Part shown: piece by piece, positions 11,997-28,858 of the stretch
Layout: every line of letters begins with the position of its first letter
How positions within the stretch are numbered: position 1 is the stretch's first letter
From: Escherichia coli
Lineage (GTDB): Bacteria > Pseudomonadota > Gammaproteobacteria > Enterobacterales > Enterobacteriaceae
DNA: 64,000 nt
Direction: 5' to 3' (one strand)
NCBI RefSeq assembly: GCF_044324785.1
Contig: NZ_CP172127.1
Position numbers and translations under genes: made by a program
Notes under the pieces: generated by a model
Database searches by the model: none
The model's input: only the letters and a program-made list of their open reading frames with translations
What the model was told of the DNA's origin: nothing

Positions 11997-13397
11997 ATGC
12001 CACATTCCTACGATTACGATGCCATAGTAATAGGTTCCGGCCCCGGCGGCGAAGGCGCTGCAATGGGCCTGGTTAAGCAAGGTGCGCGCGTCGCAGTTAT
12101 CGAGCGTTATCAAAATGTTGGCGGCGGTTGCACCCACTGGGGTACCATCCCGTCGAAAGCTCTCCGTCACGCCGTCAGCCGCATTATAGAATTTAATCAA
12201 AACCCACTTTACAGCGACCATTCGCGACTGCTCCGCTCTTCTTTTGCCGATATCCTTAACCATGCCGATAACGTGATTAATCAACAAACGCGCATGCGTC
12301 AGGGATTTTACGAACGTAATCACTGTGAAATATTGCAGGGAAACGCTCGCTTTGTTGACGAGCATACGCTGGCGCTGGATTGCCCGGACGGCAGCGTCGA
12401 AACACTAACCGCTGAAAAATTTGTTATTGCCTGTGGCTCTCGTCCATATCATCCAACAGATGTTGATTTCACCCATCCACGCATTTACGACAGCGACTCA
12501 ATTCTTAGCATGCACCACGAACCGCGCCATGTGCTGATTTACGGTGCTGGAGTGATCGGCTGTGAATATGCGTCGATCTTCCGCGGTATGGATGTAAAAG
12601 TGGATCTGATCAATACCCGCGATCGCCTGCTGGCATTTCTCGATCAAGAGATGTCAGATTCTCTCTCCTATCACTTCTGGAACAGTGGTGTAGTGATTCG
12701 TCACAACGAAGAGTACGAGAAGATCGAAGGCTGTGACGACGGTGTGATCATGCATCTGAAGTCGGGTAAAAAACTGAAAGCTGACTGCCTGCTCTATGCC
12801 AACGGTCGTACCGGTAATACCGATTCGCTGGCGTTACAGAACATTGGGCTGGAAACTGACAGTCGCGGACAGCTGAAGGTCAACAGCATGTATCAGACCG
12901 CACAGCCGCACGTTTACGCGGTGGGCGACGTGATTGGTTATCCGAGCCTGGCGTCGGCGGCCTATGACCAGGGGCGCATTGCCGCGCAGGCGCTGGTGAA
13001 AGGTGAAGCCACCGCTCATCTGATTGAAGATATCCCTACCGGCATTTACACCATCCCGGAAATCAGCTCTGTGGGCAAAACCGAACAGCAGCTGACCGCG
13101 ATGAAAGTGCCATATGAAGTGGGCCGCGCCCAGTTTAAACATCTGGCACGCGCACAAATCGTCGGCATGAACGTGGGCACGCTGAAAATTTTGTTCCATC
13201 GGGAAACGAAAGAGATTCTGGGTATTCACTGCTTTGGTGAGCGCGCTGCCGAAATTATTCATATCGGTCAGGCGATTATGGAACAGAAAGGTGGCGGCAA
13301 CACTATTGAGTACTTCGTCAACACCACCTTTAACTACCCGACGATGGCGGAAGCCTATCGGGTAGCTGCGTTAAACGGTTTAAACCGCCTTTTTTAA
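11997..13397 (+). CDS. sthA: soluble pyridine nucleotide transhydrogenase SthA (UdhA)
   Basis: 466 aa; [24 protein letters not shown] (FAD GxGxxG), pyridine nucleotide-disulfide oxidoreductase family. Confidence 0.93.
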
Positions 13398-14297
13398 CAC
13401 TTTATCGAAATGGCCATCCATTCTTGCGCGGATGGCCTCTGCCAGCTGCTCATAGCGGCTGCGCAGCGGTGAGCCAGGACGATAAACCAGCCCAATAGTG
13501 CGGCGTGGTTCCGGCTTAATGCACGGCAGATAAACAACCCCATCGCGTTTGCGCTCCGGCGGCACAGCCAGCGCTGGCAATAAAGTGATCCCGCTACCTG
13601 CCGCCACCATGTTGCGCAGCGTCTCCAGGCTGGTCGCGCGGAAGTGTGTATCTTCATCTGCCCCGGCTTCAAAGCAGAAACCCATTGCCTGATCGCGCAA
13701 ACAGTGACCGTCTTCCAGCATCAGCAGTTTTTCCCCTGCCAGATCGGCCATCGGTACGCATTCGCGGTTCGCCCACGGGTGATCTTCATAGATAGCCAGC
13801 AACATTGGCTCATCAAACAACGGCACTTCAATGAATGCTTCGCTCTCTTTCACCAGCGCGAGGATCACGCAATCGAGTTTGCCGCTGTCCAGTTGCGCCA
13901 GTAACTGGTGGGTCTGTGCTTCATGCAGATACATTTCCAGCTTTGGAAAGGTCTGGTGCAGCATCGGGATAATATGCGGTAGCAGGTACGGCCCGACCGT
14001 GGGAATCAAACCAATATGCAGCGGCCCGGACATGGTCTCACCCTGCTGGCTTGCCATCTCTTTAAGGACTTTCACCTCACGCAGCACGGTACGCGCCTGA
14101 TCCACCAGCAGCATTCCCGCCTGGGTGAACAACACTTTACGGCTGGTCCGCTCCAGCAACATCACGCCCAGCTCATCTTCCAGCTTACGAATTTGCCCGC
14201 TAAGCGTCGGCTGGCTAACGTGGCAGGAGTCTGCCGCACGCCGAAAATGGCGGTGTTCAGCCAATGCCACCAGGTACTCAAGATCACGAATATTCAT
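13380..14297 (-). CDS. oxyR: LysR-family hydrogen peroxide-responsive regulator OxyR
   Basis: Translation [44 protein letters not shown]...; start at conserved MNIRDL; 3' end overlaps convergent sthA by 18 bp. Confidence 0.95.
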
Positions 14298-14396
14298 TAT
14301 CCATCCTCCATCGCCACGATAGTTCATGGCGATAGGTAGCATAGCAATGAACGATTATCCCTATCAAGCATTCTGACTGATAATTGCTCACAGAAA

Positions 14397-14506
14397 CGGA
14401 GCGGCACCTCTTTTAACCCTTGAAGTCACTGCCCGTTTCGAGAGTTTCTCAACTCGAATAACTAAAGCCAACGTGAACTTTTGCGGATCTCCAGGATCCG
14501 CTTTTT
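14397..14506 (+). ncRNA. oxyS: OxyS small regulatory RNA, divergent from oxyR
   Basis: Sequence GAAACGGAGCGGCACCTCTTTTAACCCTTGAAGTCACTGCCCGTTTCGAGAGTTTCTCAACTCGAATAACTAAAGCCAACGTGAACTTTTGCGGATCTCCAGGATCCGCTTTTTTTT, including the terminator hairpin GCGGATC/GATCCGC and U tract. Confidence 0.93.
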
Positions 14507-14548
14507 TTTATTCTACAGGCCCACAGCAAGAGAGCCTGATAGTAACAG

Positions 14549-15832
14549 TTACTCAATCCGATCTTTGACAATAAAGAAGTAACACAGCGCCCCGGTGAAC
14601 GTCACACAGGCCGCGATAACCAGCGCCAGATTAAACGAGTGCGTGGTATCCACTACCCAACCGGTTACGATCGGAGCAAAGGAAGCAAAAACAAAACTGC
14701 CAAAGTTTTGAATCCCGGCGATGGAAGCCACTTTTGTTTCTGACACCATCACCTGCACCAGTCCCCATGCAGATGTTCCCGCGAAATGCACGCAGAACAG
14801 CGCCATTGAGATAAACGCTACCGCCTGGGCTGGCGAGGAGGATTGCACGACCAGCAACGTGCCTAATGCCGACATCATCAAACCGCAGACAATAGCCGTT
14901 TTACGCGTCTTCGCCAGGTCGTAGCCTTTTTTCGCCAGCCGATCGACAACAATACCGTTAACCCACATCCCAACCGCCGCCGCGAGGAAAGGAATCGCCG
15001 CCACCCAACCGGTTTTCGCCAGACTGAAACCTTGTTCGGCCTGCAAATAACCGGGCAACCACGCGATGTAGAGCCAGCCTGTATAGTTGACGCCAGAGAA
15101 ACCTAAAATCATCCCCCAGGTTGTCCGATGCTTAAACAGCGCCAGCCACTCGCTAAATTGTAATTGTGGACGCGGTTTAACCGGCGCGGAGAGATAGGTC
15201 CGTTCTTCGTCGGTCAGGACAAACTGCGCCCGGTTGCGATACCACGCGTACCAACAGATCCCAACCAGAATCCCCGCCACGCCGATGATGACGAACATTG
15301 CCCGCCAGCCCCATGCCAGCTGCATCAATACAAGAGCAGGAGGCGCAATAGCCTGACCGATAACGGTAGATGAGTTAAAAATCCCCAGCGCCGTGCCGCG
15401 TTCTTTTTGCGCATACCAGTCGGTGATCGACTTTACTCCCGCAGGCATAAATGGCGCTTCGCCAATACTCAAACCAATACGCATTAAAATAAAGTGGCTA
15501 AAAGAATTAACCATTCCTGTTAATGCCTGCATTAATGACCAGAATATTAAGCCTGCGCCTAAAACTATTCGTGGGCCAAAGCGGTCTAGCAAAATACCGG
15601 AAGGGAGTTGTGAAAAACCATAAGACAGAGAAAAGGCAGAAAGCAAAACGCCAAATTCTGTCGCCGATAATCCTAACTCGCCACGAATCGCTTCGCCTGC
15701 CACGCTCAATGACGAACGGTCGAGGAAATTAACGATCCCCGCCATAAATAATAAAACCAGGGTCACTGTCTGAATACGACGAATCCGTTGCGGTTTATTA
15801 CCCGCAACACTGGTTGACACATCAACGTCCAT
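14549..15832 (-). CDS. MFS transporter, anion:cation symporter type (aldonate/hexuronate transporter-like)
   Basis: 427 aa, 12 predicted TM segments, N-terminal motif GIVNFLDRSSLSVAG typical of DgoT/ExuT/GudP-like MFS sugar-acid permeases; immediately downstream of the dehydratase gene. Confidence 0.8.
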   Translation of the reverse strand: MDVDVSTSVAGNKPQRIRRIQTVTLVLLFMAGIVNFLDRSSLSVAGEAIRGELGLSATEFGVLLSAFSLSYGFSQLPSGILLDRFGPRIVLGAGLIFWSLMQALTGMVNSFSHFILMRIGLSIGEAPFMPAGVKSITDWYAQKERGTALGIFNSSTVIGQAIAPPALVLMQLAWGWRAMFVIIGVAGILVGICWYAWYRNRAQFVLTDEERTYLSAPVKPRPQLQFSEWLALFKHRTTWGMILGFSGVNYTGWLYIAWLPGYLQAEQGFSLAKTGWVAAIPFLAAAVGMWVNGIVVDRLAKKGYDLAKTRKTAIVCGLMMSALGTLLVVQSSSPAQAVAFISMALFCVHFAGTSAWGLVQVMVSETKVASIAGIQNFGSFVFASFAPIVTGWVVDTTHSFNLALVIAACVTFTGALCYFFIVKDRIE

Positions 15833-16952
15833 TTTTAGCTCCTTGAGCGGAATTAATCGATTTGATGACTATTCAGAAAATAATTAAGCGAACCGTTATT
15901 ACCAGTTCCACAATGTGCCATCTTCCAGTCGTGCGACGGGGAGATACGCCGGGTCATACGGATATTTCGCCGCCAGTTTCTCATCGAAAGAAATACCCAG
16001 CCCCGGTTCATCGCCTGGGTGCATATAACCTTCATCGAAGCGCCAGCTATGCGGGAAGACTTCAAGCATTTGTTCGGAATAGCCCATGTACTCCTGAACG
16101 CCAAAGTTTGGCACCCAGAGGTCAAAATGCAGCGCCGCCGCATGACAAACAGGCGATAAATCTGAAGGGCCATGCGAACCGGTACGTACCTGATAAAGCG
16201 ATGCAAAATCGGCAATCCGTCGCATCCCGGTAATGCCGCCTGCATGGGTAATCGTCGTGCGAATATAGTCAATCAGCTGCTCTTCGATTAACTGCTTGCA
16301 GTCCCAGATACTGTTAAACACTTCACCGACCGCAATCGGCGTCACAGTATGCTGGCGAATCAGACGAAAACATTCCTGGTTCTCGGCAGGCGTCGGATCT
16401 TCCATCCAGAACAGGCGGTAATCCTCAATGCTCTTCCCAAAGCGCGCCGCTTCGATAGGAGTCAGGCGATGGTGCATGTCATGCAACAGATGTTCGTTAA
16501 AACCGAACTTATTACGCACCGCTTCGAATAACTTCGGCGTAAAATCGAGATACTTTTCTGAAGACCACAACTGCTCTTCTGGCCACAGGCCTTTGGTTGC
16601 CGGTTCATACGCCAGTCCTTTGCCCTTCGCCAGGCCATAAGTGGTTTGCATACCCGGTACACCACACTGCACACGAATCGCCTTAAAGCCCATCTGCTGG
16701 TGCTTTGCATAGTCTTCAAGGACTTCATCAATCGTACGCCCGGTGGTGTGGCAATAAACCATCACGCCTTCACGAGAAGCACCACCAAGCAGTTGATACA
16801 ATGGCATATTTGCCGCTTTTGCTTTGATATCCCACAACGCCATATCAATGGCAGAAATGGCTGACATCGTGACGGGGCCACGTCGCCAGTAAGCACCGGT
16901 GATGCTGCCAACTTACTGATTTAGTGTATGATGGTGTTTTTGAGGTGCTCCA

Positions 16953-17228
16953 GTGGCTTCTGTTTCTATCAGCTGTCCCTCCTGTTCAGCTACTGACGGG
17001 GTGGTGCGTAACGGCAAAAGCACCGCCGGACATCAGCGCTATCTCTGCTCTCACTGCCGTAAAACATGGCAACTGCAGTTCACTTACACCGCTTCTCAAC
17101 CCGGTACGCACCAGAAAATCATTGATATGGCCATGAATGGCGTTGGATGCCGGGCAACTGCCCGCATTATGGGCGTTGGCCTCAACACGATTTTACGTCA
17201 CTTAAAAAACTCAGGCCGCAGTCGGTAA
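16953..17228 (+). CDS. insA: IS1 protein InsA (zinc-finger DNA-binding)
   Basis: 91 aa [43 protein letters not shown]... Confidence 0.95.
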
Positions 17229-17650
17229 CCTCGCGCATACAGCCGGGCAGTGACGTCATCGTCTGCGCGGAAATGGACGAACAGTGGGGCTATGTCGGGG
17301 CTAAATCGCGCCAGCGCTGGCTGTTTTACGCGTATGACAGTCTCCGGAAGACGGTTGTTGCGCACGTATTCGGTGAACGCACTATGGCGACGCTGGGGCG
17401 TCTTATGAGCCTGCTGTCACCCTTTGACGTGGTGATATGGATGACGGATGGCTGGCCGCTGTATGAATCCCGCCTGAAGGGAAAGCTGCACGTAATCAGC
17501 AAGCGATATACGCAGCGAATTGAGCGGCATAACCTGAATCTGAGGCAGCACCTGGCACGGCTGGGACGGAAGTCGCTGTCGTTTTCAAAATCGGTGGAGC
17601 TGCATGACAAAGTCATCGGGCATTATCTGAACATAAAACACTATCAATAA
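17147..17650 (+). CDS. insB: IS1 transposase InsB (expressed as InsAB' by -1 frameshift)
   Basis: 167 aa ...[41 protein letters not shown]... Confidence 0.93.
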
Positions 17651-18261
17651 GTTGGAGTCATTACCGTAAGCACCTTTATAAAAGAATTGCCAGATATCTT
17701 CGATACGGCTGGCATCGCGGCCAATTAATTGTGGACAAAGATGATCTTTCAGATAAGAAGCGACCGACAATTCGCGCCCATTTAACGTGGCATCTCCTAA
17801 TCCACAAAGTCCGCTTTCAGTGGTTATTTTAAGCGTAACGAAATTACGTCCTGGGCAAGTAACAAAAACATCTGCAGCAATAATTTTCATTATTGCAATC
17901 TCCTGTGTTGTAAATAGACGCTTCAAACTTAATTTTACGCCTACTACCATACAAGAGAGAAAGAGCGATTATTCAACCGTGATCACATTAAAAACAAAAA
18001 TTCCCACCGAGGAACAAGAATATCCTCAAATTTCATCCACACTATTAATTACTATTGTTAAAACAACACGTTAAATAATCACATAACAAATTCCTCTAAG
18101 GAAGAGAGTCATAACAATAACAAATGATAATCATATTTTACTTAATTCAATACGTATCGATATGTTTATTTTAAAAAGATTTTTCGGAATGAGAGATGAA
18201 AAGAAGATACACAAACAGGAAGAAATACGATTAATATTGGTCGCGGTAAGGGTAGCCGTTC

Positions 18262-18378
18262 CTCCCTTCCGCAACCCATTAACCCTTGAAGTCACAGTCT
18301 ATTTCAGGCATTTCTCAACTCAAAATAACGAAGGCCAATGTGAACTTTGTGGCTCTCCAGGATCCGCTTTGTTTTCCA
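18262..18378 (+). repeat. diverged partial copy of the oxyS 3' half including a terminator-like hairpin
   Basis: ttaacccttgaagtcac identical to oxyS; the following ~80 nt are about 80 percent identical (tttctcaactcaaaataacgaaggccaatgtgaactttgtggctctccaggatccgctttgtttt versus oxyS tttctcaactcgaataactaaagccaacgtgaacttttgcggatctccaggatccgctttttttt). Confidence 0.8.
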
Positions 18379-19857
18379 TCAAACAACGGAACTCAGCGCA
18401 CTGGCAACCTGTTTAAAGCGAGCAAACCGTCGCCTGAGCATGTGTGCTTTTTCTACATTCGGTTCAAGACGAATCACGTTGAGATGCGTGGCCTTCATGG
18501 CCTGTTTGAATCCAGAATAAGCCCCTCCTCCTACTGCCGCACACATTGCAGCCGCTCTACAACCTGACTGTTCAATATCGACAATTTCAAGAGGCATGTT
18601 GCTGGCATCACAAAACATCTGCATCCAGATTCTGGAATGCGTTGGCCCGCCAGAGAAACGAATCGTTTGCAATGACTTATCAATCTCAATAAGACGGTCC
18701 TGATGCAACAAATGAGAAAAGACAATGCCCTGATAAATCGCGTACACCAAATCTTCTCTTTTATGATGCCCACACAGCCCCAAAAATCCCCCGCTTAATG
18801 CCTCATGGTAATTCGAGCCAAACAACCACGGGAAAAAGAGAATATCATTCTGCTTCTCATACCCTCGTTCCACCCACTCATTAATCACCCGATAGCTGTC
18901 AGGAAGATCCGGTAAAAATTGCTGCAAGAACCATGTCAAATTACTGGCTGATGTAGGGCTTCCCTCATGGGCGAAAAATGTACCTGGAATGCTAAATTTC
19001 CCCCATACATAGGGATAATCAGAAGGAATAATGCGATCAAAGATACGCGTTGCAATTGACCAGGTGCCAGCAACCGCACTTAACGTTGTACTGTCATAGA
19101 TGCCAGAAGTGAGCGCCGCACCAACGACATCAAAAACACCACCAAAAACAGGCGTTCCGGCGAGAAGCCCACATTGGCTGGCTGCTTCAGATGTCACAAC
19201 CCCTGCTAAATCAGCGGAGCCAATAATATCGGGAACCTTACCCGCAACTTCCTTAATCTCAAATAGGCGAAAAAGTTCAGCATCATAAGCACTGGTATAT
19301 TGATTATAAAAATTACTGCCTGAAATATTGGTTTCTTCACAAGCCAGTTTGCCAGTAAGCCGTGAACGTATGTAATCATGAACCATCAAAATGGTTCCGA
19401 TGCGGCCATAATTGTCAGTCTCATGTTTTTTCAACCAATGCAATAGTGCTACAGGGTGCGATGGCCAGAGCTGTTGCAGACTACGGTGATAGCTTTCGCG
19501 GTCAATTCCTTGTTCTTTCCAGCTTGCAACCAGTTGTTGTGCGCGAGAATCAGAGGAAACAATGCCGTATCGTAAGGGCTTACCTTGCCGGTCGAGCAGG
19601 TACAAACCTTTACCATGAGCAGAAAAACTGATGCCATCAATCTGACTCGCAGTAATATTGTTCTCTGACATCGACAGTGAAATGACCTGGCACGTTACCT
19701 TCCATAACGCCTCCATGTCGCGTTCGCAAAAACCAGGACATGGGCTTAACAGAGGTAACACTTGCGAAGAGACACCTATTTCACGTCCTTCTGCCGTATA
19801 AATTCCCGCTTTGGTTTCTGTACCACCTAAATCGACACCAATAAAATACCGCTCCAT
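18379..19857 (-). CDS. FGGY-family carbohydrate kinase (xylulokinase/L-xylulokinase-like)
   Basis: 492 aa; MERYFIGVDLGGTETKAGIYTAEG N-terminal actin-fold kinase motif; last gene of the minus-strand operon. Confidence 0.82.
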   Translation of the reverse strand: MERYFIGVDLGGTETKAGIYTAEGREIGVSSQVLPLLSPCPGFCERDMEALWKVTCQVISLSMSENNITASQIDGISFSAHGKGLYLLDRQGKPLRYGIVSSDSRAQQLVASWKEQGIDRESYHRSLQQLWPSHPVALLHWLKKHETDNYGRIGTILMVHDYIRSRLTGKLACEETNISGSNFYNQYTSAYDAELFRLFEIKEVAGKVPDIIGSADLAGVVTSEAASQCGLLAGTPVFGGVFDVVGAALTSGIYDSTTLSAVAGTWSIATRIFDRIIPSDYPYVWGKFSIPGTFFAHEGSPTSASNLTWFLQQFLPDLPDSYRVINEWVERGYEKQNDILFFPWLFGSNYHEALSGGFLGLCGHHKREDLVYAIYQGIVFSHLLHQDRLIEIDKSLQTIRFSGGPTHSRIWMQMFCDASNMPLEIVDIEQSGCRAAAMCAAVGGGAYSGFKQAMKATHLNVIRLEPNVEKAHMLRRRFARFKQVASALSSVV

Positions 19858-19873: not shown

Positions 19874-20737
19874 CTAAATATTATCCCAGCCGGCAAGGCG
19901 CATTTTCTCTTCAATCCATTGACGTGCATGAATAATTTCTAATAGAGGTTCCGTCGCTTTTTCTGTCCACATTTCTATCAGAAACGTTCCGCGATAATTA
20001 AGATTACGCAGAATCTTAAATAATTTAATAAAATCTACACACCCTTCACCAAAAGGAACGTCACGAAATTGCCCTGGAGAATCAGGCGTTACTGGGTACG
20101 TATCTTTAAGATGGATTGCGGCAATTCGATCAATCCCCTTTACCAGCTCACTTTCCAGTTCATTACCCCATGCGGTCAGATTGCCAACATCCGGATAAAC
20201 GGTAAACCAAGGGGAATTAATTTTTGTATCCAGGACTTTCCATTTACTAATAGAATTAATAAATGGCGTATCCATGATTTCTACAGCACACATAACTTGT
20301 GCCGCTGCGGCCTGTTCAGCTGTCCAGGCCATCGCATCTTCAAACCAGGCGATAGTTTCTTCATTCTGCGGCTCATAATAAACGTCATAGCCTGCCAGTT
20401 GGATTGTTCGAATCCCCAAATCCTGCGCCAGGCGTAACGCCTTCAACATAATCGTACGCGCCTGCTGACGAGTATCTCTATCATGGCTACCAAATGGAAA
20501 ACGCCGGTGAGCAGACAGGCACATTGTCGGAATACGGATCCCCGTTTGCTGAATGGCGCTAATAAGCTCCATACGCTCGGTGAGCGACCAGTCCAGGCGG
20601 GCGAGTCGTTCATCATTCTCATCTACCGACATCTCAACAAAATCAAAACCGCAAGATTTAGCCAGGGCTAGTTTCTCTACCCAACTGGTATTCCTGGGTA
20701 GCGCTTTTTCATAAATACCTAACGGGTGGCGTCGCAT
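19874..20737 (-). CDS. sugar-phosphate 3-epimerase, TIM-barrel (L-xylulose/L-ribulose-5-phosphate 3-epimerase UlaE/SgbU-like)
   Basis: 287 aa; LGIYEKALP...GFDFVEMSVDE.DERLARLDWS...CLSAHRRFPFGS...IQLAGYDVYYE...PDVGNL...FGEG.VDF motifs shared with UlaE/SgbU. Confidence 0.85.
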   Translation of the reverse strand: MRRHPLGIYEKALPRNTSWVEKLALAKSCGFDFVEMSVDENDERLARLDWSLTERMELISAIQQTGIRIPTMCLSAHRRFPFGSHDRDTRQQARTIMLKALRLAQDLGIRTIQLAGYDVYYEPQNEETIAWFEDAMAWTAEQAAAAQVMCAVEIMDTPFINSISKWKVLDTKINSPWFTVYPDVGNLTAWGNELESELVKGIDRIAAIHLKDTYPVTPDSPGQFRDVPFGEGCVDFIKLFKILRNLNYRGTFLIEMWTEKATEPLLEIIHARQWIEEKMRLAGWDNI

Positions 20738-21813
20738 TATTTTCCCTCACGAGTGATCAATTGTTGTTGAAAGATTTTCCGGCTCTTATTCATGTCACGC
20801 TGCAACTGCCATTTTTGTTTGATGAATTTAAATGCCAATGCGGCGATCAATGTGATCCCCCATACCGCCAGATTGAAATGCAAACTAATTCCCAACAGAC
20901 TAAGGCCGGTAGCAATAACCTGAAGCACAAGTAAGGCACAAAAAACATGACTGACTTTACCCGCCCCACCGAATGGATCTGTGCCTCCCAATACAATTGC
21001 AAGAACCGTCAAGAGCAAATAGGAATCGCCATAGCCCATACGCGCCGAATTAAATCGCGCGAGCATAATAAGACCTGCTAATACACACAACATGCTGGAT
21101 ATAGCATATATAGCAATTAATACGCGGTCGGTGCGAATACCGCTAAACCATGTGGCGTTAATATTACTGCCACACATATAAATCGTTTTTCCCGTACGGG
21201 TTTTGCCGAGGAACAGAGCTAAAGCAACGGTGGTGACGATAAAAATCATCATCGGTACTGGGATCCCCATGATAACTTCAGACCCAATACTGCGGACTAC
21301 TGGTGGCATACCACTTAAAGCTGCCCCCTTAGTCAGGTAAATACCGATACCACTAATAATGGTCATGCTACCCAATGTGACCAAAATAGGGTGAGCGCCT
21401 ATATGAGAAATAATTAACCCAGTAATAGCTCCAATGATGATGGCAATAAGCATCGCCCCGACAATAGCCAGGAAGAGCCAAAACAACTGGCTACCTGTAG
21501 ATGCATCTGCGGGTACATATTGAATCAACACCCAGGCCATAAACAGGCTGGTCAGATTCGCAGTACCGATGATTGCCAGATTAAGCCCCCCGCTCAACAT
21601 CGGTATAAACATCGCAAACGTGAGCAACCCAAGCTCTGGCAATTGAAATGCAATGCTCAGAAAAGTATTGTCGGTGAAAAAACGCCCCGGCATTGCCAGA
21701 CTAAATAACACCACCGCAATAAAACATATTGATAATAAGCCTGAACTGGTACCATCTAGTGGAAAAAATATCCGCTTGTTCATTTCGATCCTCCCGTTAG
21801 ACGAAACCAACAT
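20737..21813 (-). CDS. sugar ABC transporter permease (CUT2/RbsC-like)
   Basis: 358 aa, multi-pass membrane protein, in operon with the ATPase and binding protein. Confidence 0.8.
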   Translation of the reverse strand: MLVSSNGRIEMNKRIFFPLDGTSSGLLSICFIAVVLFSLAMPGRFFTDNTFLSIAFQLPELGLLTFAMFIPMLSGGLNLAIIGTANLTSLFMAWVLIQYVPADASTGSQLFWLFLAIVGAMLIAIIIGAITGLIISHIGAHPILVTLGSMTIISGIGIYLTKGAALSGMPPVVRSIGSEVIMGIPVPMMIFIVTTVALALFLGKTRTGKTIYMCGSNINATWFSGIRTDRVLIAIYAISSMLCVLAGLIMLARFNSARMGYGDSYLLLTVLAIVLGGTDPFGGAGKVSHVFCALLVLQVIATGLSLLGISLHFNLAVWGITLIAALAFKFIKQKWQLQRDMNKSRKIFQQQLITREGK

Positions 21814-22789
21814 CAGTTTCTTTACGCTTTTTGTAATGGGTCACACAAATCGCCGAGACAATAACCACCCCAATAACGATATTGACGAAATAACTCGAGA
21901 CACCAATCAAATTAAGGCCGTTTTTAAGAATACCGATAAGAAATACGCCCATAAGCGTACCAATGACCGTACCACGTCCGCCTGATAAACTGGCACCGCC
22001 CAATACCGCTGCAGCCAGCACATCCAACTCTCCGCCAACCAATGCATTCGGCACAACTTCACTCATACGGTAAGCTTGCAGCATTCCACCAATTGCTGCA
22101 GCGGCACCAAGATAACCGTAAGCAAACAGATAAATTAGCGACACCCGAATCCCAATACGTCTTGCTGATTCGGTATTCCCTCCCACGGCATAAAGCTGAC
22201 GCCCAATATGGGTTTTGTTCATTATCACCCACGTCAGAAATGCCATTCCCAGCATAACCACTAACGGTAATCCGATCTGGTAATCTTCTCCGCCAAATTC
22301 AAAACTCAGGAAAGAACGCTGCGTAATCCACCAATCCGGTAAATCGTAAATACTGTGACCATTAGTCAACCACATCAACATACCGAACAGTAACGACTGC
22401 ATACTAATCGTAATGATGATAGAAACGACATTAAGGTAATAAATAAGAATAGCGTTTATCAAACCAAAAATGATGCCAAAAAAAACAGCAAACACCAGGC
22501 AGAAAAATGGATTTGATAGCGTTTCATTAAGCAGTAACGACGCCACAACATATTGCACAACCGAAGCTACTGCTGCAAAAGAGATATCAATTCCGCCAGT
22601 AACCAATACGACAAATAATCCGAGGGCGAAAATACCCGTTACGGCATAACTCTCCGAGAGATCGAGCAAGTTCTGTATTGATAAAAACTCATCGCTCATG
22701 ATGGAAAAAAATACCAGCATGAGAACAATGACCCATCCTAACCAAGCTTCGACTGAACGAGGAAACCGCAGCCGCATAAAGCTAACCAT
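21797..22789 (-). CDS. sugar ABC transporter permease (CUT2/RbsC-like)
   Basis: 330 aa hydrophobic multi-pass protein; overlaps neighbouring genes by a few codons (translational coupling). Confidence 0.8.
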   Translation of the reverse strand: MVSFMRLRFPRSVEAWLGWVIVLMLVFFSIMSDEFLSIQNLLDLSESYAVTGIFALGLFVVLVTGGIDISFAAVASVVQYVVASLLLNETLSNPFFCLVFAVFFGIIFGLINAILIYYLNVVSIIITISMQSLLFGMLMWLTNGHSIYDLPDWWITQRSFLSFEFGGEDYQIGLPLVVMLGMAFLTWVIMNKTHIGRQLYAVGGNTESARRIGIRVSLIYLFAYGYLGAAAAIGGMLQAYRMSEVVPNALVGGELDVLAAAVLGGASLSGGRGTVIGTLMGVFLIGILKNGLNLIGVSSYFVNIVIGVVIVSAICVTHYKKRKETDVGFV

Positions 22790-24299
22790 TAATCACCTCC
22801 GCCAACTGCTGCTCGGTATAATTCGAAGGCAACAGCTCATGAATAATCTTTCCGCGCTTCATATGAAAAATACGATCGCAGTTATAATAAGCTTCTGGTG
22901 CTTCATCAGTAATTAATATCACTGAAATACCCACACCTGAAAGCCGATGAATAAGCTGGTAAATACTATCTTTTGCGCCAATATCTACACCTACCGTTGG
23001 CGCATCCAGAATTAAAACCTTAGGTCGTGTTAAAATCCATTTAGCCAGGACAACCTTTTGTTGATTGCCACCAGATAGCGTTGAAAGTGGATTATTTGGA
23101 TCGGTGACCTTAATATCCAAATCCTGGATCCACTCCTTGACTAAGGTTTCTTTTCGATTTTCATCAATAAACCCCGATGGCGTCTTTAAACGATCCAGAA
23201 TCGAGAGCACCATATTATCGCTGATAGATTGGGGTAATACGGCCCCCAGTGTCAGGCGATCTTCTGAAACATATGCTATTCCCAGTTTTACCGCATGCGT
23301 GTTGTCTTTAATTGTAACGGGCTTACCTTCAAGATAAATATCACCACTATCTGCTCGAGTAATACCGAAAAGACTCAATGCTAATTCGGTTCTCCCCGCA
23401 CCAAGTAAACCACACAATCCCAGAACCTCGCCTTGGTGTAGTTTTAGAGATACATCTTCAAATTGCCCTTTTCTGCATAATTTTTTTAGTTCAAGAACTA
23501 CTTTACCTTCAACGCTATTTGGTAGTTTTTTCTGGTGGACTATAGTTTTTCCGGTCATTAACTCAGTAATATCGCCTGGAGAAAGTTGATTGGCAGCCCA
23601 CGTTCCAATTATCTCTCCATCACGGATGACCGTAATTCGGTCTGAGATTTCCTTAACTTCATCAAGGCGGTGGCTAACAAAAACTACGGTAATATTTTTA
23701 TCGCGTAAGTAATTCACTGTGCGTAGTAATTGATTAACTTCAGTGCGCGTCAATGACGCCGTTGGCTCGTCCATGATGACTAACCGGGCATCGGCAATCA
23801 GAGCCCGGCAAATAGCGACCTGTTGGCGTTGTGCAATCGGCAAATGTTGTACTAACGCATCAGGATCGAGATTGAATTCCAGTTCCTGAATTATTTTCTG
23901 TGATACATCTCGAAGTTGTTTTTTTCTGTGCAGCCCTAAATATCCCTTCAGGTTGTATTCAAAAGCGATATTTTCAGCCACAGAAAGATTTGGGAATAAA
24001 GAAAGATCCTGATATATCACCTGAATACCCAGTTCCCGAGCTTTATCAGGAGAAAGACGAGTCCAGGACTTACCATCTATAATAATTTCACTTCCCGAAT
24101 CAGGAACATAAACACCACACAGCGTTTTGATCAGAGTACTTTTACCACACCCATTCGCACCAGCAAGACAATGAACCTCACCTTTATTTAAGGTAAGATT
24201 GATATTTTTTAGAGCCCTATGGCCACCGAAACTTTTCGTTAGTGACCTTAGCGTCACTAATGGTTGCTCCGCATTCTTCTCTATAATATGAGGCATCAT
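22782..24299 (-). CDS. sugar ABC transporter ATP-binding protein with two fused ABC domains (RbsA/MglA/AraG type)
   Basis: 505 aa; Walker A GANGCGKST in domain 1, second P-loop GLLGAGRTE, ABC signature LSGGNQQK. Confidence 0.88.
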   Translation of the reverse strand: MMPHIIEKNAEQPLVTLRSLTKSFGGHRALKNINLTLNKGEVHCLAGANGCGKSTLIKTLCGVYVPDSGSEIIIDGKSWTRLSPDKARELGIQVIYQDLSLFPNLSVAENIAFEYNLKGYLGLHRKKQLRDVSQKIIQELEFNLDPDALVQHLPIAQRQQVAICRALIADARLVIMDEPTASLTRTEVNQLLRTVNYLRDKNITVVFVSHRLDEVKEISDRITVIRDGEIIGTWAANQLSPGDITELMTGKTIVHQKKLPNSVEGKVVLELKKLCRKGQFEDVSLKLHQGEVLGLCGLLGAGRTELALSLFGITRADSGDIYLEGKPVTIKDNTHAVKLGIAYVSEDRLTLGAVLPQSISDNMVLSILDRLKTPSGFIDENRKETLVKEWIQDLDIKVTDPNNPLSTLSGGNQQKVVLAKWILTRPKVLILDAPTVGVDIGAKDSIYQLIHRLSGVGISVILITDEAPEAYYNCDRIFHMKRGKIIHELLPSNYTEQQLAEVING

Positions 24300-24362
24300 A
24301 ATATTCCTGAATACGACTAAAGGAATTCCGGGTCAAATTTGACCCGGTGATTTACGGTAAAA

Positions 24363-25367
24363 TTACAAGCCTAACTTCACTAAATGTCGTGTATTTTCAA
24401 GATCGAGCTTTTCTGGATTATCACTATAAATAGTGTTGTTATTAACCTTGATCTCGCCCATATCACCGATTTTTACACCGTCTTTAATAGGTTCACCGTT
24501 CATCATTGCCGTCGCAACCTGGACAAAAACCTTACCCGCAATCATAGGGTTTGAAATATATCCCCCATCAATGGCGCCTTTTTCGAGTAGCTTAATTCCC
24601 TGACCTGGAGTGAAGGTTCCAAAAACGCAAATTGCGTCATTTTTCTTCCGCTTATCAATAGCACGCCCCGCACCAATTGGTCCTTGTGAACCAAATGACA
24701 TAATGCCTTTAAGATCTTTATATTTAGACATTAAATCGTTCGTCGTGCGCATTGAATCATCCACCGATTCAGCAACACCAAAACGATCTTCAACCAACGT
24801 CATATTTGGATAATGTTCTTTTTGATAAGCAATCGCGGCATTGGCCCAGTCATTTACCAAAGGCACGGTCAGACTGCCGACAAACATGGCGTATTTACCT
24901 TCTTCGCCCATGCACTTCGCCATATCTTTCATATGATTGGCACCCATTGTCTGGGTATTTAACAACTCAAAATCCCAATCTGCATTTTTTTGATCTGGTG
25001 ATTCGTGGGTAATAACTTTAATACCGGCTTCTTGTGCACGCTTAAGTACAGGTTCAAGAACCTTTGCATCGTTAGGAACAACCCCAATAACATCCACTTT
25101 TCGTGCAATTAAATCTTCAATCGCCCGAACCTGTTCAGCTGGATCTGCCGTTGTAGGGCCGACCTGCCATGCATCAACCCCCAATAGTTTTCCTTCATCT
25201 TTAATGCCTTGTTCCATCACATTAAACCAGGGAATGCCACCGACTTTTACTACTACCCCCATCGTAAAAGGTTTATTCGCTTTTTGTGATGTTACAGTCT
25301 GATCAGCCCATGCAGCAGTGGAAGATAATACGGTAGCAATAAGGCAGGGTAAGATTAATTTTTTCAT
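24363..25367 (-). CDS. periplasmic sugar-binding protein of ABC transporter (RbsB/LsrB-like)
   Basis: 334 aa with N-terminal signal peptide MKKLILPCLIATVLSSTAAWA; first gene of operon. Confidence 0.82.
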   Translation of the reverse strand: MKKLILPCLIATVLSSTAAWADQTVTSQKANKPFTMGVVVKVGGIPWFNVMEQGIKDEGKLLGVDAWQVGPTTADPAEQVRAIEDLIARKVDVIGVVPNDAKVLEPVLKRAQEAGIKVITHESPDQKNADWDFELLNTQTMGANHMKDMAKCMGEEGKYAMFVGSLTVPLVNDWANAAIAYQKEHYPNMTLVEDRFGVAESVDDSMRTTNDLMSKYKDLKGIMSFGSQGPIGAGRAIDKRKKNDAICVFGTFTPGQGIKLLEKGAIDGGYISNPMIAGKVFVQVATAMMNGEPIKDGVKIGDMGEIKVNNNTIYSDNPEKLDLENTRHLVKLGL

Positions 25368-25489
25368 CGTAATTTCCTTAAGAAATAGTTCAGGTGTCAG
25401 GAAAACTCGATATAATATCGACCTGACTATTTATATAATTTATAATCCCTTAGGCATTGATTAATAATTTAGACAATAAATAATGCCTA

Positions 25490-26299
25490 TTATTTATCAA
25501 CCTCCACAATGTTTAATTGTGGAAATTGTGTTCGATACCGAGTATCTGTACAAACATTAGTCACCAGAATATCGATTTCATCCAGCGTGCATATTTTACT
25601 AAATGCATACTGTTCAAACTTACTGGAGTCGACCAGCAATATTTTTTGTCCTGACACCTGAAGCATCACCTGTTTAAGTCTGGCATTAATTTCACTGCCA
25701 TCGCGGACACCATTCCCCAGATTCAACCCCTGGCATGAAAAGAAAAAACTGTTGATTTGAAAATTTCGGATCGCCCCCTCTGCAACCGGGCCATGAAAAT
25801 CATCATGTCGCTCAGAATACTCACCACCGATACCAATAATTCGAACTCGATCACGGCAAGCCAACGCCTGAATTATCCGTAATGAATTTGTAACTACAGT
25901 AACATCTATATCGGGAATTTGACGAGCTAAAAACCAACAAGTACTACTGTTATCCATTAAAATACAATCACCAGGGTGAATAAATTGCAATGCGGCCTTC
26001 GCAATTCTGGCTTTTATATCAGGATTTTCTTCAGTCCGTTTACGGAATGATTCCGCACGATCGATACTATTATCTTGCCACGCATTATCGGCGAGCATAA
26101 CCGGAGCGCTATCAGATGAATCCAGAGCGACCGCGCCACCAAAGCTACGGATTAACTTTTTGTTGCGCTCCAGTACCGTTAAATCCCGACGAATTGTCTC
26201 AGGAGACGCTTTAAATAATCGTGATAATTCTGTTACCTGTACAGCACCTTGTTTTTGTACATGTGCGCATATCATTTTATGGCGCTCTGCCTGCAACAT
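25490..26299 (-). CDS. DeoR-family transcriptional regulator
   Basis: 269 aa; N-terminal HTH (VTELSRLFKASPETIRRDL) and C-terminal DeoR sugar-phosphate-binding domain; upstream of the ABC operon on the same strand. Confidence 0.85.
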   Translation of the reverse strand: MLQAERHKMICAHVQKQGAVQVTELSRLFKASPETIRRDLTVLERNKKLIRSFGGAVALDSSDSAPVMLADNAWQDNSIDRAESFRKRTEENPDIKARIAKAALQFIHPGDCILMDNSSTCWFLARQIPDIDVTVVTNSLRIIQALACRDRVRIIGIGGEYSERHDDFHGPVAEGAIRNFQINSFFFSCQGLNLGNGVRDGSEINARLKQVMLQVSGQKILLVDSSKFEQYAFSKICTLDEIDILVTNVCTDTRYRTQFPQLNIVEVDK

Positions 26300-26752
26300 A
26301 GTATCGGTCCGTTATTATCAAATTAGCATGCTTATATAATTAACTGTTCCCTCATAAAATAAAGTGATAGGAATCAAGATTCATTTTATAAATATAATCG
26401 CAAACAGAAATGGTGATCTTTACCACAAATTAAATTGAGAATATTCTACTATTGGACATTTTTTTGAGATATACGTCACTAAATAAGCTTTATTCTGTCA
26501 CCTGACGAAAAATTTAAATGCAAAAACAAAAATAATCGGGCATAGCAATCTCTTCCATTCATGACCGAATACGCCCGAATAAAACCGTTTACGCCCACTT
26601 ACCCTCTTTCATTGCCTTCTTACATGCCTTGAATATTTTACATTTCTTATATTCAGCGTAATTTAGGCAACATAATTTACGAGCAAAAATAGCCAAAACC
26701 CAAAAGTTAAAGTTTATTTATATAATACATACAGATTATCGTGGAGTTAAAA

Positions 26753-27435
26753 ATGGATACGCTAAAGGAAAAAGTTCTTGCTGCGAATTTATCACTACCC
26801 CTTCATCAGTTAGTGACGTTTACCTGGGGAAATGTTAGCGGTATTGATCGCGAAAAAGGTGTCATGGTTATTAAACCTTCTGGGGTCGAATACAGCCAAA
26901 TGGGCAGGTGGTAGTGGATTTACAAAGTGGTGAAGTTATTGATGGACACAGGAAACCCTCTTCAGACACAGATACTCATCTGGCGCTATACCGTGCTTTC
27001 CCGGATATTGGAGGTATCGTTCATACCCATTCCCGACACGCCACAATATGGGCTCAGGCCGGAAAAGATCTCACGGCCTTTGGGACAACCCATGCAGATT
27101 ATTTCTACGGCACTATCCCCTGTACACGCCCCATGAAGGATGACGAAATTAATGGACAATATGAATATGAAACGGGGCGAGTGATTATTGAAACGTTCAG
27201 GCAACGAGAAATATCTCCCGCTGACATTCCGGCTGTTTTAGTAAACAGTCATGGCCCCTTTGCCTGGGGAACTGATCCCGCGAACGCCGTGCATAACGCC
27301 GTTGTACTTGAAGAAATCGCCTATATGAATCTCTTTACACAACAGCTACACCCCCATCTTACGGCTATTCAACAGCCTCTACTGGATAAGCATTTTTTAC
27401 GCAAGCATGGTGCCAATGCTTATTACGGGCAGTAA
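26753..27435 (+). pseudogene. L-ribulose-5-phosphate 4-epimerase (AraD/SgbE/UlaF-like), frameshifted near codon 50
   Basis: ATG at 26753 with GGAG RBS gives [53 protein letters not shown] then stop at 26912; +1 frame continues [52 protein letters not shown]...HGANAYYGQ, strongly AraD-like. Confidence 0.8.
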
Positions 27436-27484
27436 CCCTCTAAGCATGGCCTGGCGTTTTGCCAGGCCACGAATCGCCCAGGAC

Positions 27485-28858
27485 TTACCCCAACCGCGCC
27501 CTTGCAAAAGCAATCGCCTGCGCCACCTGCTGCGGTGAGACGCCGCCTTTTGCAGCACGCTTGTCGAGGCACGATTGCAGCGACAGAATCGGATAGACAT
27601 CTTCGCCAATCACCTGGCTGAATTTCTGCAACTCACTGAGCGGCAGATCTTCCAGCGGTTTGCCCTGACGAATGGCTTCCACCACCGCTTCACCAACAAT
27701 ATGGTGCGCCTCGCGGAACGGTACGCCTTTCGCCACCAGGTAATCCGCCAGTTCAGTGGCGTTCGCATACCCCTGCTGCGCCGCTTCCTGGCAACGTGGA
27801 CATTTCACCTGAATGCCGTCCAGCACCAGCGCCGCCATATGCAAGCAGTCCAGCCAGGTATCGAGCGCGTCGAACAGACCTTCTTTGTCTTCCTGCATAT
27901 CTTTGTTGTAAGCCAGCGGCAAACCTTTCAGCGTCATCATCATGCCGGTTAACGCCCCCTGCACCCGACCGCATTTACCGCGAATCAGCTCCAGCGCATC
28001 CGGGTTTTTCTTCTGCGGCATTAATGATGAACCTGAAGTCACGCGGTCAGAAAGCTCCACAAATCCCGCTTCGCCGGTGTTAAAGAAAATCAGATCTTCA
28101 GCAAAACGCGACAGATGCACCATGCCGATAGCGGCAGCAGAAAGCAGTTCCAGCACATGATCACGGTCAGAAACGCTGTCGAGACTGTTACGGGTCGCCG
28201 AAGCAAAGCCCAGCCAGCCTGCTAACTGTTCACGGTCGATTTCATAGGCCGTTCCCGCCAGTGCGCCACAGCCTAACGGGCTGACATCCAGACGCTTAAG
28301 CGCGTCCTGCAAACGGCTTTCATCACGCGCCAGCATCTCAACGTAGGCCAGGCACCAGTGCGCGAAAGTCACCGGTTGAGCGCGTTGCAGGTGGGTGTAA
28401 CCTGGCATTACCGCGTCCTGATTGTTTTGTGCGGTTTCCACCAGCGCCGATTGCAGCTGCCGGTTAGCCGTCAGTAACTCGCTAACGGTATCTTTGCACC
28501 ACAGTTTCAGGTCAGTCGCGACCTGGTCATTACGGCTACGCCCGGTGTGCAGTTTTTTGCCTAACTGACCCACTTTGTCGATCAATTTGCCTTCCACCCA
28601 GCTATGGATATCTTCGGCGTCGCTTTCAAGGATTTGTTGTGGCCTGGCGCGAACATCTTCCAGCAGCACGTTCAGCGCCTCTTCCAGTTGCGCCTGTTCT
28701 TCTGCGGTCAACACACCGACCGTTACCAGGGCTTTGGACCAGGCCACAGAGCCAACAATATCCTGCTCCGCCAGACGGTAATCAAAGCGCAGTGAGTCGT
28801 TGAATTGTTTGAACCGTTGATCTGCTGCCTGGGTAAAACGCCCGCCCCAAAGTGCCAT
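27485..28858 (-). CDS. argH: argininosuccinate lyase ArgH
   Basis: 457 aa; [37 protein letters not shown]..., fumarate lyase signature [10 protein letters not shown]. Confidence 0.95.

What the first reader, a model, noticed from the sequence alone, without database searches (positions are those of the whole stretch)
18262..18378. Diverged direct repeat of the oxyS 3' half sits 3.7 kb from the genuine oxyS, bracketing the transporter-dehydratase module
A 17-nt block (ttaacccttgaagtcac) is identical and the following ~80 nt including the terminator-like hairpin are about 80 percent identical to oxyS. The copy lies exactly at the boundary between the two accessory modules and directly abuts the kinase stop codon. 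It may be the scar of the original oxyS-proximal junction after insertion or duplication, or less likely an expressed oxyS paralogue.
Basis: seen in the sequence. Interest (0 to 1): 0.65.

Follow-up and report, generated by a model that had tools for sequence, protein, structure and literature searches.

The report
Dead leftover copy of oxyS
The second oxyS-like stretch is real, but it is a decaying, promoter-less leftover of the small RNA gene oxyS that marks an old gene-order junction also seen in Citrobacter; it is not a working second copy, so it is a tidy but ordinary piece of genome archaeology.

Summary
Window 18279-18375 matches the genuine oxyS (14413-14509) at 81 of 98 aligned positions. 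This includes two perfect 17-nt blocks, and no shuffle came close (z = 43).

The copy is a relic, not a gene.
- It scores 41 bits on the Rfam OxyS model, where the threshold is 75 and the genuine gene scores 139.5.
- It has no OxyR-binding motif and no promoter-like site.
- Its terminator hairpin has collapsed to -5.8 kcal/mol, against -12 to -15 in six working orthologues.
- It does not fold into the OxyS shape.
- Between two E. coli lineages it differs at 8 of 133 sites. That is at least the rate at four-fold degenerate sites of the neighbouring genes. The genuine oxyS of the same two genomes is identical.

Comparative data explain its position. In Citrobacter amalonaticus-group strains and in Atlantibacter, the same 8-gene sugar module fills the oxyS-argH gap, and the single working oxyS ends next to the kinase stop codon. 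The E. coli copy sits in that same place.

The copy occurs in 145 of 5,426 complete E. coli genomes. In every locus inspected it sits beside that module, and the match counts agree (145 and 146 genomes). It was not detected in the one inspected genome that carries only the transporter-dehydratase unit.

Interest is low to moderate.

The parts
13380..14297 (-). oxyR, divergent from the genuine oxyS
   Evidence: Annotated as oxyR in matching E. coli records. The ORF is listed and the start codon is seen.
14319..14355 (+). OxyR-binding motif upstream of the genuine oxyS. No counterpart lies upstream of the copy.
   Evidence: Consensus scan with up to 3 mismatches found this site and only one other, near the far end of the window (63918-63954).
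14393..14502 (+). Genuine oxyS sRNA gene; its T-run continues to 14510
   Evidence: Rfam RF00035, 139.5 bits. Folds into the canonical three stem-loops, -32.9 kcal/mol, z = -2.6. Present at 95% identity or better in 5,425 of 5,426 complete E. coli genomes.
14549..15832 (-). MFS transporter (D-galactonate-transporter subfamily)
   Evidence: NCBIfam TIGR00893, E = 7e-80. Annotated as MFS transporter in RefSeq records.
15899..17890 (-). manD (D-mannonate dehydratase), interrupted by IS1
   Evidence: NCBIfam ManD and PRK15072. With IS1 and one target-duplication copy removed it reads through as an intact 404-aa protein.
16898..17665 (+). IS1 insertion with a 9-bp target duplication GTAAGCACC (16889-16897 and 17666-17674). 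It is absent from the other B-type and C-type loci inspected at this position.
   Evidence: Sequence, NCBIfam IS1 transposase. Other genomes lack it at this position.
17891..18093 (.). Proximal manD upstream spacer, shared by genomes with and without the kinase module
   Evidence: Aligns with strain WAT, which lacks the kinase module: near-identical over the first ~100 nt, 184 of 207 columns overall.
18094..18245 (.). Distal spacer specific to the kinase-module haplotype; a diverged homologue of the spacer in genomes that lack the kinase module
   Evidence: 108 matches, 30 mismatches and 21 gap columns against WAT; z = 9.2. Not found in any genome lacking the kinase module.
18246..18378 (+). 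oxyS relic (pseudo-oxyS). Homology is certain for 18279-18375 (oxyS nt 21 to T-run). The 5' part, 18219-18278, is a probable continuation with a 13-nt insertion.
   Evidence: for homology. for loss of function.
18379..19857 (-). FGGY-family sugar kinase, last gene of the 8-gene module. Its stop codon is 3 nt from the relic's T-run.
   Evidence: NCBIfam, RefSeq annotation. Orthologues sit tail-to-tail with oxyS in Citrobacter and Atlantibacter.
19874..26299 (-). Rest of the module: L-ribulose-5-P 3-epimerase, two ABC permeases, ABC ATPase, substrate-binding protein, DeoR regulator
   Evidence: NCBIfam; synteny with 21 loci from other genera.
26743..27435 (+). araD-like L-ribulose-5-P 4-epimerase, the outer gene of the module
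   Evidence: Coordinates transferred from the RefSeq annotation of locus L001; tblastn synteny.
27485..28858 (-). argH, the core gene on the far side of the slot
   Evidence: Homology to genomes lacking the kinase module resumes exactly at the argH stop codon; annotation.

Best explanation
The element is a non-functional remnant of an oxyS gene. It marks the place where oxyS once ended next to the 8-gene sugar-utilisation module (ABC transporter, FGGY kinase, two L-ribulose-5-P epimerases, DeoR regulator). That order, argH-[module]-oxyS-oxyR, survives intact in Citrobacter amalonaticus-group strains and in Atlantibacter. In a minority E. coli haplotype, a working oxyS followed by the MFS-manD unit and its upstream spacer now lies between oxyR and the old junction. 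The old copy was therefore cut off from the OxyR-dependent promoter.

Since then the old copy has drifted. It shows about 17% substitutions, a 13-nt insertion in loop a, a terminator hairpin weakened from about -12 to -6 kcal/mol or less, and an interrupted U-tract. It is probably not made as an sRNA and does nothing as OxyS.

What is shown: the homology, the cross-genus position, the absence of promoter and OxyR motifs, the loss of terminator and fold, and the neutral substitution rate. What is inferred: the order of events, and the recombination that produced the partial duplication. The likeliest route is one homologous end plus one illegitimate end, or a single crossover of a circular intermediate within oxyS. 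The lack of transcription is also inferred. Whether the haplotype is an old resident of the E. coli lineage or came from an unsampled relative is unresolved; I lean towards an old resident.
For: Homology: 81 of 98 positions, z = 43; Rfam OxyS 41.1 bits, E = 1e-6.

Position: oxyS lies directly downstream of, and convergent with, the orthologous kinase in L007, L008, L021, L024 and L011. All five show full synteny argB-argH-[8 genes]-oxyS-oxyR-sthA. Three of those oxyS genes pass the Rfam threshold at 87-95 bits.

Linkage: the copy is in 145 of 5,426 complete E. coli genomes and the kinase region is in 146; the copy lies beside the kinase in all four intact loci inspected, and a fifth has lost that stretch to an IS1-associated deletion. 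About 1,860 genomes carry MFS-manD. The one MFS-manD-only spacer inspected (strain WAT) has no OxyS hit even at E <= 10.

Loss of function. The OxyR motif is found only upstream of the genuine gene. No promoter-like or terminator-like site lies in 17850-18450 on either strand. Terminator hairpin energies are -5.8, -3.2 and -2.3 kcal/mol in the three alleles, against -12.2 to -14.6 in six orthologues. The minimum-energy fold is not OxyS-like, with z = -0.3 and +1.1, against -2.6 and -2.8 for E. coli and Citrobacter oxyS.

No constraint. Window versus strain E400634: 8 of 133 differences in the copy, against 37 of 1,176 at four-fold degenerate sites (Fisher p = 0.12), 91 of 7,746 over all coding sites (p = 2.5e-4), and 0 of 118 in the genuine oxyS. 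The changes hit the conserved 17-nt block and the terminator stem.

Age. About 20 differences from oxyS are shared by both alleles, against 3 + 3 private ones. Many lie at positions invariant in E. coli and Citrobacter oxyS.
Against: There are no expression data, so transcription from either strand is not excluded. The copy still keeps 22 of 28 consensus base pairs and both 17-nt blocks that correspond to conserved OxyS loops; that is about what 17% neutral change would leave, but it does not prove inactivity. A TAATAT hexamer lies at the position homologous to the oxyS -10 element (my reading). The homology of the first 20 nt and the promoter-proximal part is only moderately supported: 5 of 2000 shuffles in the anchored test, and not significant in an unanchored local search. 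No E. coli genome shows the intermediate order oxyR-oxyS-kinase, and no donor lineage was found, so the history is a reconstruction.
Confidence: 0.85

Rival explanations
1. Same relic, different origin. The fragment arrived together with the kinase/ABC module from an unsampled enterobacterial donor that had the Citrobacter-like order. It was joined into a chromosome carrying only MFS-manD, using argH as the homologous anchor and an illegitimate joint in the manD upstream spacer. On this view the copy is the donor's oxyS, not a duplicate of the E. coli gene.
For: The copy always co-occurs with the module. Divergence from genomes lacking the module rises on both sides of it: the distal spacer has 22% mismatches plus gaps, and the first 400 nt of argH are 94-96% identical against 98-100% further away. 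The inspected MFS-manD-only spacer has no OxyS hit. At a few positions the copy matches the Citrobacter state rather than the E. coli state, for example CTCAAAATAAC.
Against: No donor exists in the databases searched. The kinase forms one E. coli-only cluster, and the next relative is 70% identical among 5.8 billion clusters and 100,044 species genomes. The haplotype-specific distal spacer is itself a diverged homologue of the spacer in genomes lacking the module (z = 9.2), so a donor would already have needed the manD spacer next to the relic. The copy is closer to E. coli oxyS (82.7%) than to any Citrobacter oxyS (about 75%). The terminator defects are shared by all alleles, so decay began before the alleles split.
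Confidence: 0.25
2. The copy matters on the opposite strand. The kinase operon has no recognisable terminator and runs into the relic. Its read-through RNA would carry sequence complementary to OxyS, including two perfect 17-nt blocks, and could act as a sponge for OxyS or as an OxyS target. That would link oxidative stress to this sugar pathway.
For: The kinase stop codon is 3 nt from the relic. The hairpin that follows oxyS in Citrobacter and in K-12-type E. coli is missing here. No terminator-like site lies on either strand in 17850-18450. manD and the MFS gene lie downstream on the same strand. The perfect blocks 18279-18295 and 18354-18370 are the parts most conserved among oxyS orthologues.
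Against: The E400634 allele breaks both blocks, and the Nord58 allele changes the loop-c region. The region evolves at or above the neutral rate. Nothing shows that this RNA exists.
Confidence: 0.05
3. The two oxyS copies are attachment-site repeats left by site-specific integration of the MFS-manD unit into oxyS. This is how islands integrate into tRNA or tmRNA genes, leaving a displaced 3' gene fragment at the far end.
For: The geometry fits: an intact gene at one end, a 5'-incomplete copy at the other, in direct orientation, with a 17-nt identical block at the inner edge of the repeat.
Against: No integrase or recombinase gene lies in or next to the bracketed segment. It holds only the MFS gene, manD and a spacer, and the IS1 is a later insertion with its own 9-bp duplication. 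The repeat is about 100-145 nt long and 83% identical, not a short exact core. Homology probably runs past the supposed core into nt 1-20 and the -10 region. The relic co-varies with the neighbouring module, not with the bracketed unit.
Confidence: 0.04
4. The copy is a working second oxyS-like sRNA with diverged targets.
For: Rfam aligns it end to end. The conserved loop-a block and the loop-c sequence are retained in the window allele. A TAATAT hexamer sits at the position homologous to the -10 element.
Against: The score is 34 bits below the family threshold. There is no OxyR site and no -35/-10 pair. The terminator is at -5.8 kcal/mol or weaker with a broken U-tract. The fold is no better than shuffled sequence. 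Substitution is neutral and not compensatory, while the genuine gene is invariant.
Confidence: 0.03

Closest known systems
OxyS RNA (Rfam RF00035), the OxyR-induced sRNA encoded divergently from oxyR in Enterobacteriaceae
   Same: Clear sequence homology over nt 21-110 and probably over the full length. Same orientation. Same position relative to the kinase module as the working oxyS of Citrobacter and Atlantibacter.
   Different: Below the family threshold (41 against 75 bits). Not next to oxyR. No OxyR site or promoter. Degraded terminator and fold. No purifying selection.
The oxyR-argH intergenic locus as described by Krieger et al. 2022 (PMC8825220), where oxyS itself arose from the 3' end of an ancestral peroxidase gene
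   Same: Same locus. This is another case where only a 3'-terminal fragment of a former gene survives a rearrangement there.
   Different: In that case the fragment kept the OxyR-dependent promoter and became a new regulator. Here the fragment lost the promoter and is decaying. The paper sections I read describe no second oxyS copy and no sugar module in the gap.
Displaced partial gene copies at the far end of islands integrated into tRNA or tmRNA genes
   Same: An intact RNA gene at one end and a 5'-incomplete direct repeat at the other, bracketing accessory genes.
   Different: No integrase and no short exact core. The repeat is old and diverged. The relic belongs with the neighbouring module rather than with the bracketed unit.
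Duplicated enterobacterial sRNA pairs that stay functional, such as OmrA/OmrB or RyhB paralogues (from general knowledge)
   Same: A second copy of an sRNA gene in the same chromosome.
   Different: Those pairs keep their own promoters, terminators and sequence conservation. This copy has none of the three.

Membership tests
OxyS RNA (Rfam RF00035) | Covariance-model score at or above the curated gathering threshold (75 bits) | tested here: not met
   41.1 bits, E = 1e-6. The genuine gene scores 139.5 and Citrobacter orthologues score 87-95.
OxyS RNA (Rfam RF00035) | Sequence homology to oxyS | tested here: met
   81 of 98 identical, z = 43, 0 of 500 shuffles; two perfect 17-nt blocks.
OxyS RNA (Rfam RF00035) | OxyR-dependent promoter, divergent from and adjacent to oxyR | tested here: not met
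   oxyR is 3.9 kb away. The OxyR motif is found only at 14319-14355. No sigma-70-like site lies in 17850-18450. Homology upstream of about -27 is not detectable.
OxyS RNA (Rfam RF00035) | Three stem-loop fold (a, b, c) more stable than shuffled sequence | tested here: not met
   The minimum-energy structure is non-canonical, with z = -0.27 (window allele) and +1.13 (E400634), against -2.61 and -2.82 for working genes. 22 of 28 consensus pairs remain, about what neutral decay would leave.
OxyS RNA (Rfam RF00035) | Strong Rho-independent terminator (stem-loop c plus an uninterrupted U-tract) | tested here: not met
   -5.8, -3.2 and -2.3 kcal/mol with UUUGUUUU, against -12.2 to -14.6 with U8-9 in six orthologues. 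No terminator-like site was found by the scan.
OxyS RNA (Rfam RF00035) | Purifying selection within the species | tested here: not met
   8 of 133 differences between two E. coli alleles, against 3.1% at four-fold degenerate sites and 0 of 118 in the genuine oxyS.
OxyS RNA (Rfam RF00035) | H2O2-induced, Hfq-bound transcript of about 110 nt | not testable with these tools
Integrase-mediated island with attachment-site repeats | Integrase or recombinase gene inside or beside the bracketed segment | tested here: not met
   Only the MFS gene, manD and a spacer lie between the repeats; IS1 is absent from the other B-type and C-type loci inspected at this position.
Integrase-mediated island with attachment-site repeats | Short exact core shared by both ends, with unrelated sequence beyond it on one side | tested here: inconclusive
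   A 17-nt exact block lies at the inner edge in the window allele. It is broken in the E400634 allele, and weak homology continues 5' of it.
Functional sRNA paralogue pair | Each copy has its own promoter and terminator, and is conserved | tested here: not met
   See the promoter, terminator and selection rows above.

The most novel reading that the evidence does not exclude
The relic is used in antisense. Read-through RNA of the terminator-less kinase/ABC operon crosses it and so carries anti-OxyS sequence. That RNA would pair with the genuine OxyS, as a sponge or as a target, coupling the oxidative-stress response to an accessory L-sugar pathway in the E. coli lineages that keep this haplotype.
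Probability: 0.05. Interest if true: 0.6.

Novelty: new member of a known kind. Interest (0 to 1): 0.25.

Why it matters
This is a clean, datable example of what happens to an sRNA gene once it is cut off from its promoter. The terminator and stems erode at the neutral rate while the working copy 3.9 kb away stays invariant.

It also shows that the oxyS-argH gap, already known as the birthplace of oxyS, held an 8-gene sugar module in several genera. It shows too that a deeply diverged haplotype of this slot persists in about 3% of complete E. coli genomes.

In practice, annotation pipelines and sRNA surveys should not count this locus as a second oxyS. None of this changes how OxyS is understood to work.

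Tried and rejected
1. Looked for the relic in genomes that carry only MFS-manD. By eye, TTAAATTTAAGCTCAC in strain WAT resembles the 17-nt block. However, local alignments against oxyS and against the copy score no better than shuffles (z = -1.0 and 0.0), and Rfam finds nothing at E <= 10. I do not claim a remnant there.

2. Tested whether homology extends into the oxyS promoter and OxyR site. It is not significant in an unanchored search (z = 0.1). It is moderately supported only when anchored at the block, and nothing is detectable upstream of about -27.

3. Tested whether sequence after the copy's T-run matches the K-12-type spacer after oxyS (CCATAAAAAAGCC against CCATCAAACAACGG). The stretch is too short to be significant (z = 0.9).

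4. Searched for a donor of the module. One scan of 100,044 species genomes and one search of 5.8 billion protein clusters found nothing closer than 70% to the kinase.

5. Tried to find the MFS-manD unit next to oxyS in other genera through ManD homologues. The nearest cluster turned out to be the rspA-rspB paralogue locus of Enterobacter, so this route led nowhere.

6. Checked the 84-aa ORF over the copy (18162-18416, + strand). It loses its start codon and takes only amino-acid-changing differences in E400634, so I treat it as spurious.

7. Literature. No mention of a second oxyS copy in the hits I examined. One of the three searches was wasted on word-start matches, and Skippington and Ragan 2012 list oxyS only as a core sRNA.

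Full report
**Observation**

The window is an E. coli chromosome segment running rrnB - murI - btuB - trmA - fabR - sthA - oxyR - oxyS ... argH. Rfam places the genuine oxyS at 14393-14502 on the + strand with 139.5 bits.

- The 17-nt block TTAACCCTTGAAGTCAC occurs exactly twice in 64 kb, at 14413 and 18279, with 0.01 matches expected.
- The repeat finder reports the two flanking pieces at 80% and 90% identity.
- A local alignment pairs 14413-14509 with 18279-18375 at 81 of 98 positions. The score is 107 against 18.0 +/- 2.1 in 500 dinucleotide shuffles, z = 43.
- A permissive Rfam search also recognises it: OxyS, 18246-18368, 41.1 bits, E = 1e-6, below the 75-bit gathering score.

The homology covers oxyS nt 21 to the end of the terminator T-run, not just the 3' half. 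I aligned the 50 nt upstream of the block in oxyS (positions -30 to +20) against the 63 nt upstream of the block in the copy. Only 5 of 2000 shuffles reach the observed score. The copy therefore probably spans about -27 to +118, with a 13-nt extra block in loop a. That extension is not significant in an unanchored search, so I treat it as probable only.

**What surrounds it**

Between the two copies lie an MFS transporter (14549-15832) and manD (15899-17890). In this strain manD is split by an IS1 with a 9-bp target duplication. An AT-rich spacer follows.

Immediately after the copy comes an FGGY kinase, whose stop codon is 3 nt from the copy's T-run. Then come an L-ribulose-5-P 3-epimerase, two ABC permeases, an ATPase, a binding protein, a DeoR regulator and a divergent araD-like 4-epimerase. 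argH follows.

**Layouts of this slot in E. coli**

Complete E. coli genomes show three layouts.
- **A (K-12 type):** oxyS-argH.
- **B:** oxyS-MFS-manD-argH, for example strain WAT.
- **C:** as in the window.

MFS-manD is present in about 1,860 of 5,426 genomes. The kinase region is present in 146 and the oxyS-like copy in 145. The one genome with only a partial kinase match has lost the copy through an IS1-associated deletion.

The B-type spacer has no OxyS match even at E <= 10. So the copy goes with the kinase module, not with the unit it appears to bracket.

**Other genera**

A scan of one genome per species found the same 8-gene module in 21 loci: Citrobacter, Atlantibacter, Erwinia, Pantoea, Serratia, Yersinia and Providencia.

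In four Citrobacter loci and one Atlantibacter locus, the module lies in the same chromosomal slot: argB-argH-[module]-oxyS-oxyR-sthA. The single oxyS is convergent with, and about 65 nt from, the kinase stop codon. Upstream of those oxyS genes the OxyR-binding region is conserved almost base for base with E. coli. Three of them pass the Rfam threshold at 87-95 bits.

The E. coli copy therefore sits exactly where a working oxyS sits in those genera. This is the strongest evidence that it is the remnant of an original oxyS/kinase junction.

**Is it still a gene?**

Every test says no.
- **Promoter.** The OxyR consensus is found upstream of the genuine oxyS (14319-14355) and nowhere near the copy. 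No sigma-70-like or terminator-like site lies in 17850-18450 on either strand.
- **Terminator.** The hairpin is -12.4 kcal/mol in E. coli oxyS and -12.2 to -14.6 in the five orthologues, kept by compensatory changes, each followed by U8-9. In the three alleles of the copy it is -5.8, -3.2 and -2.3 kcal/mol, followed by UUUGUUUU.
- **Fold.** The genuine RNA and the Citrobacter orthologue fold into the three-stem-loop shape, with z = -2.6 and -2.8 against shuffles. The copy does not: z = -0.3, and +1.1 for the E400634 allele. It still has 22 of 28 consensus pairs, which is about what 17% random change would leave.
- **Selection.** The copy exists as two alleles, in 135 and 10 genomes, 6% apart. 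Between the window and strain E400634 it has 8 differences in 133 nt. Four-fold degenerate sites of the seven adjacent genes show 37 in 1,176 (Fisher p = 0.12). All coding sites show 91 in 7,746 (p = 2.5e-4). The genuine oxyS of the same two genomes shows 0 in 118. The differences fall in the 17-nt block and in the terminator stem.

Relative to oxyS, about 20 changes are shared by both alleles and 3 + 3 are private. Many of the shared changes lie at positions invariant in E. coli and Citrobacter oxyS. The copy has therefore been drifting for much longer than the two alleles have been separate. The Jukes-Cantor distance to oxyS is about 0.19.

**History (inference)**

Layout A keeps the hairpin GCCATAAAAAAGCCCGGC...GCCAGGC immediately after oxyS, which also follows oxyS in Citrobacter. 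In Citrobacter a similar hairpin lies at the other end of the module, next to argH. Layout A therefore looks like the Citrobacter-type order with the module absent.

In layouts B and C the sequence after the genuine oxyS T-run switches at once to the MFS-manD unit.

B and C are about 98% identical from rrnB through oxyR and MFS to the IS1 site in manD. Identity then falls across the manD upstream spacer: near-identical at first, 184 of 207 columns over 17891-18093, and lower still beyond window 18094. Over 18110-18260 there are 108 matches, 30 mismatches and 21 gap columns, though the two are still clearly homologous (z = 9.2). The argH end next to the module is also more diverged (94-96%) than sequence further away.

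So the C haplotype, comprising the distal spacer, the relic and the module, is far older than ordinary E. coli diversity or came from a diverged relative. No donor is known. The kinase forms a single E. coli-only cluster, and the next relative is 70% identical.

The partial duplication itself is best explained in one of two ways.
- **Linear fragment.** One homologous end in sthA-oxyR-oxyS or in argH, plus one illegitimate joint.
- **Circular intermediate.** A single crossover within oxyS.

Site-specific integration is unlikely because the bracketed segment has no recombinase.

**Comparison with what is known**

Krieger et al. 2022 showed that oxyS itself arose in this oxyR-argH gap from the 3' end of an ancestral peroxidase gene that kept its OxyR-dependent promoter. 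The present element is the mirror case: an oxyS that lost that promoter and is eroding.

It fails the defining tests for membership of the OxyS family as a functional gene, and is best called a pseudo-oxyS. I found no description of it in the literature searches I ran.

**Verdict**

- The "expressed paralogue" reading is very unlikely.
- One speculative reading remains open. The kinase operon lacks a recognisable terminator and would read through the relic in antisense, producing RNA complementary to OxyS. The neutral evolution of the region argues against a selected role.

This is a new example of a familiar kind of feature, a gene remnant at an accessory-module boundary. It is of modest interest for sRNA evolution and for annotation.

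Noticed in passing
window 16889-17674: IS1 (16898-17665) sits inside manD with a 9-bp target duplication GTAAGCACC. With IS1 removed, manD is an intact 404-aa reading frame. The closest relative, strain N3, which has a 100% identical MFS-manD, instead has a stop at codon 64. manD has therefore been inactivated independently in near-identical haplotypes.
   Followed up: yes
L028 3985-4002 (E. coli strain 98200): The genuine oxyS of this strain carries a 16-nt insertion in loop a at the TTAA. The relic has its 13-nt extra block at the same spot. This may be an indel-prone site, or the strain's oxyS may be damaged.
   Followed up: partly
L007 11480-11530 and 2350-2385; L027 3310-3340; window 27445-27470: In Citrobacter the 8-gene module is flanked by two similar hairpins, AAAAAGCC(C/T)GGC...GCCAGGC. 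K-12-type E. coli has one such hairpin between oxyS and argH. The repeats could mediate clean loss or gain of the module.
   Followed up: partly
window 17850-18450: No terminator-like site follows the kinase gene on its own strand, and the hairpin present in Citrobacter is missing. The kinase/ABC operon may read through the relic in antisense into manD and the MFS gene, which lie on the same strand.
   Followed up: partly
window 18379-19857: The FGGY kinase is only 68-70% identical to the Citrobacter and Atlantibacter orthologues, while the other seven module proteins are 81-94% identical. In a 5.8-billion-cluster database nothing lies between 100% (E. coli) and 70%.
   Followed up: partly
window 18094 (L002 13115): Identity between genomes with and without the kinase module drops from near-identity just upstream of manD to about 78% at aligned sites (68% of columns once gaps are counted) beyond 18094 within the manD upstream spacer. 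This marks an old recombination boundary of the haplotype.
   Followed up: yes
L008 11538-11642; L011 11532-11640: The oxyS of Citrobacter sp. Cu233 (which lacks stem-loop b) gets no OxyS hit at the Rfam gathering threshold. The oxyS of Atlantibacter sp. RC6 matches only over its 3' part, at 30.9 bits. Yet both sit next to a conserved OxyR-binding region. oxyS is diverging fast or decaying in these lineages.
   Followed up: partly
E. coli genome collection: The genuine oxyS query also matched two places on plasmids, and one genome had two places. I did not examine these.
   Followed up: no
window 18162-18416 (+): An 84-aa ORF overlaps the relic. In strain E400634 its start codon is lost and all differences change amino acids, so it is not a gene.
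   Followed up: yes
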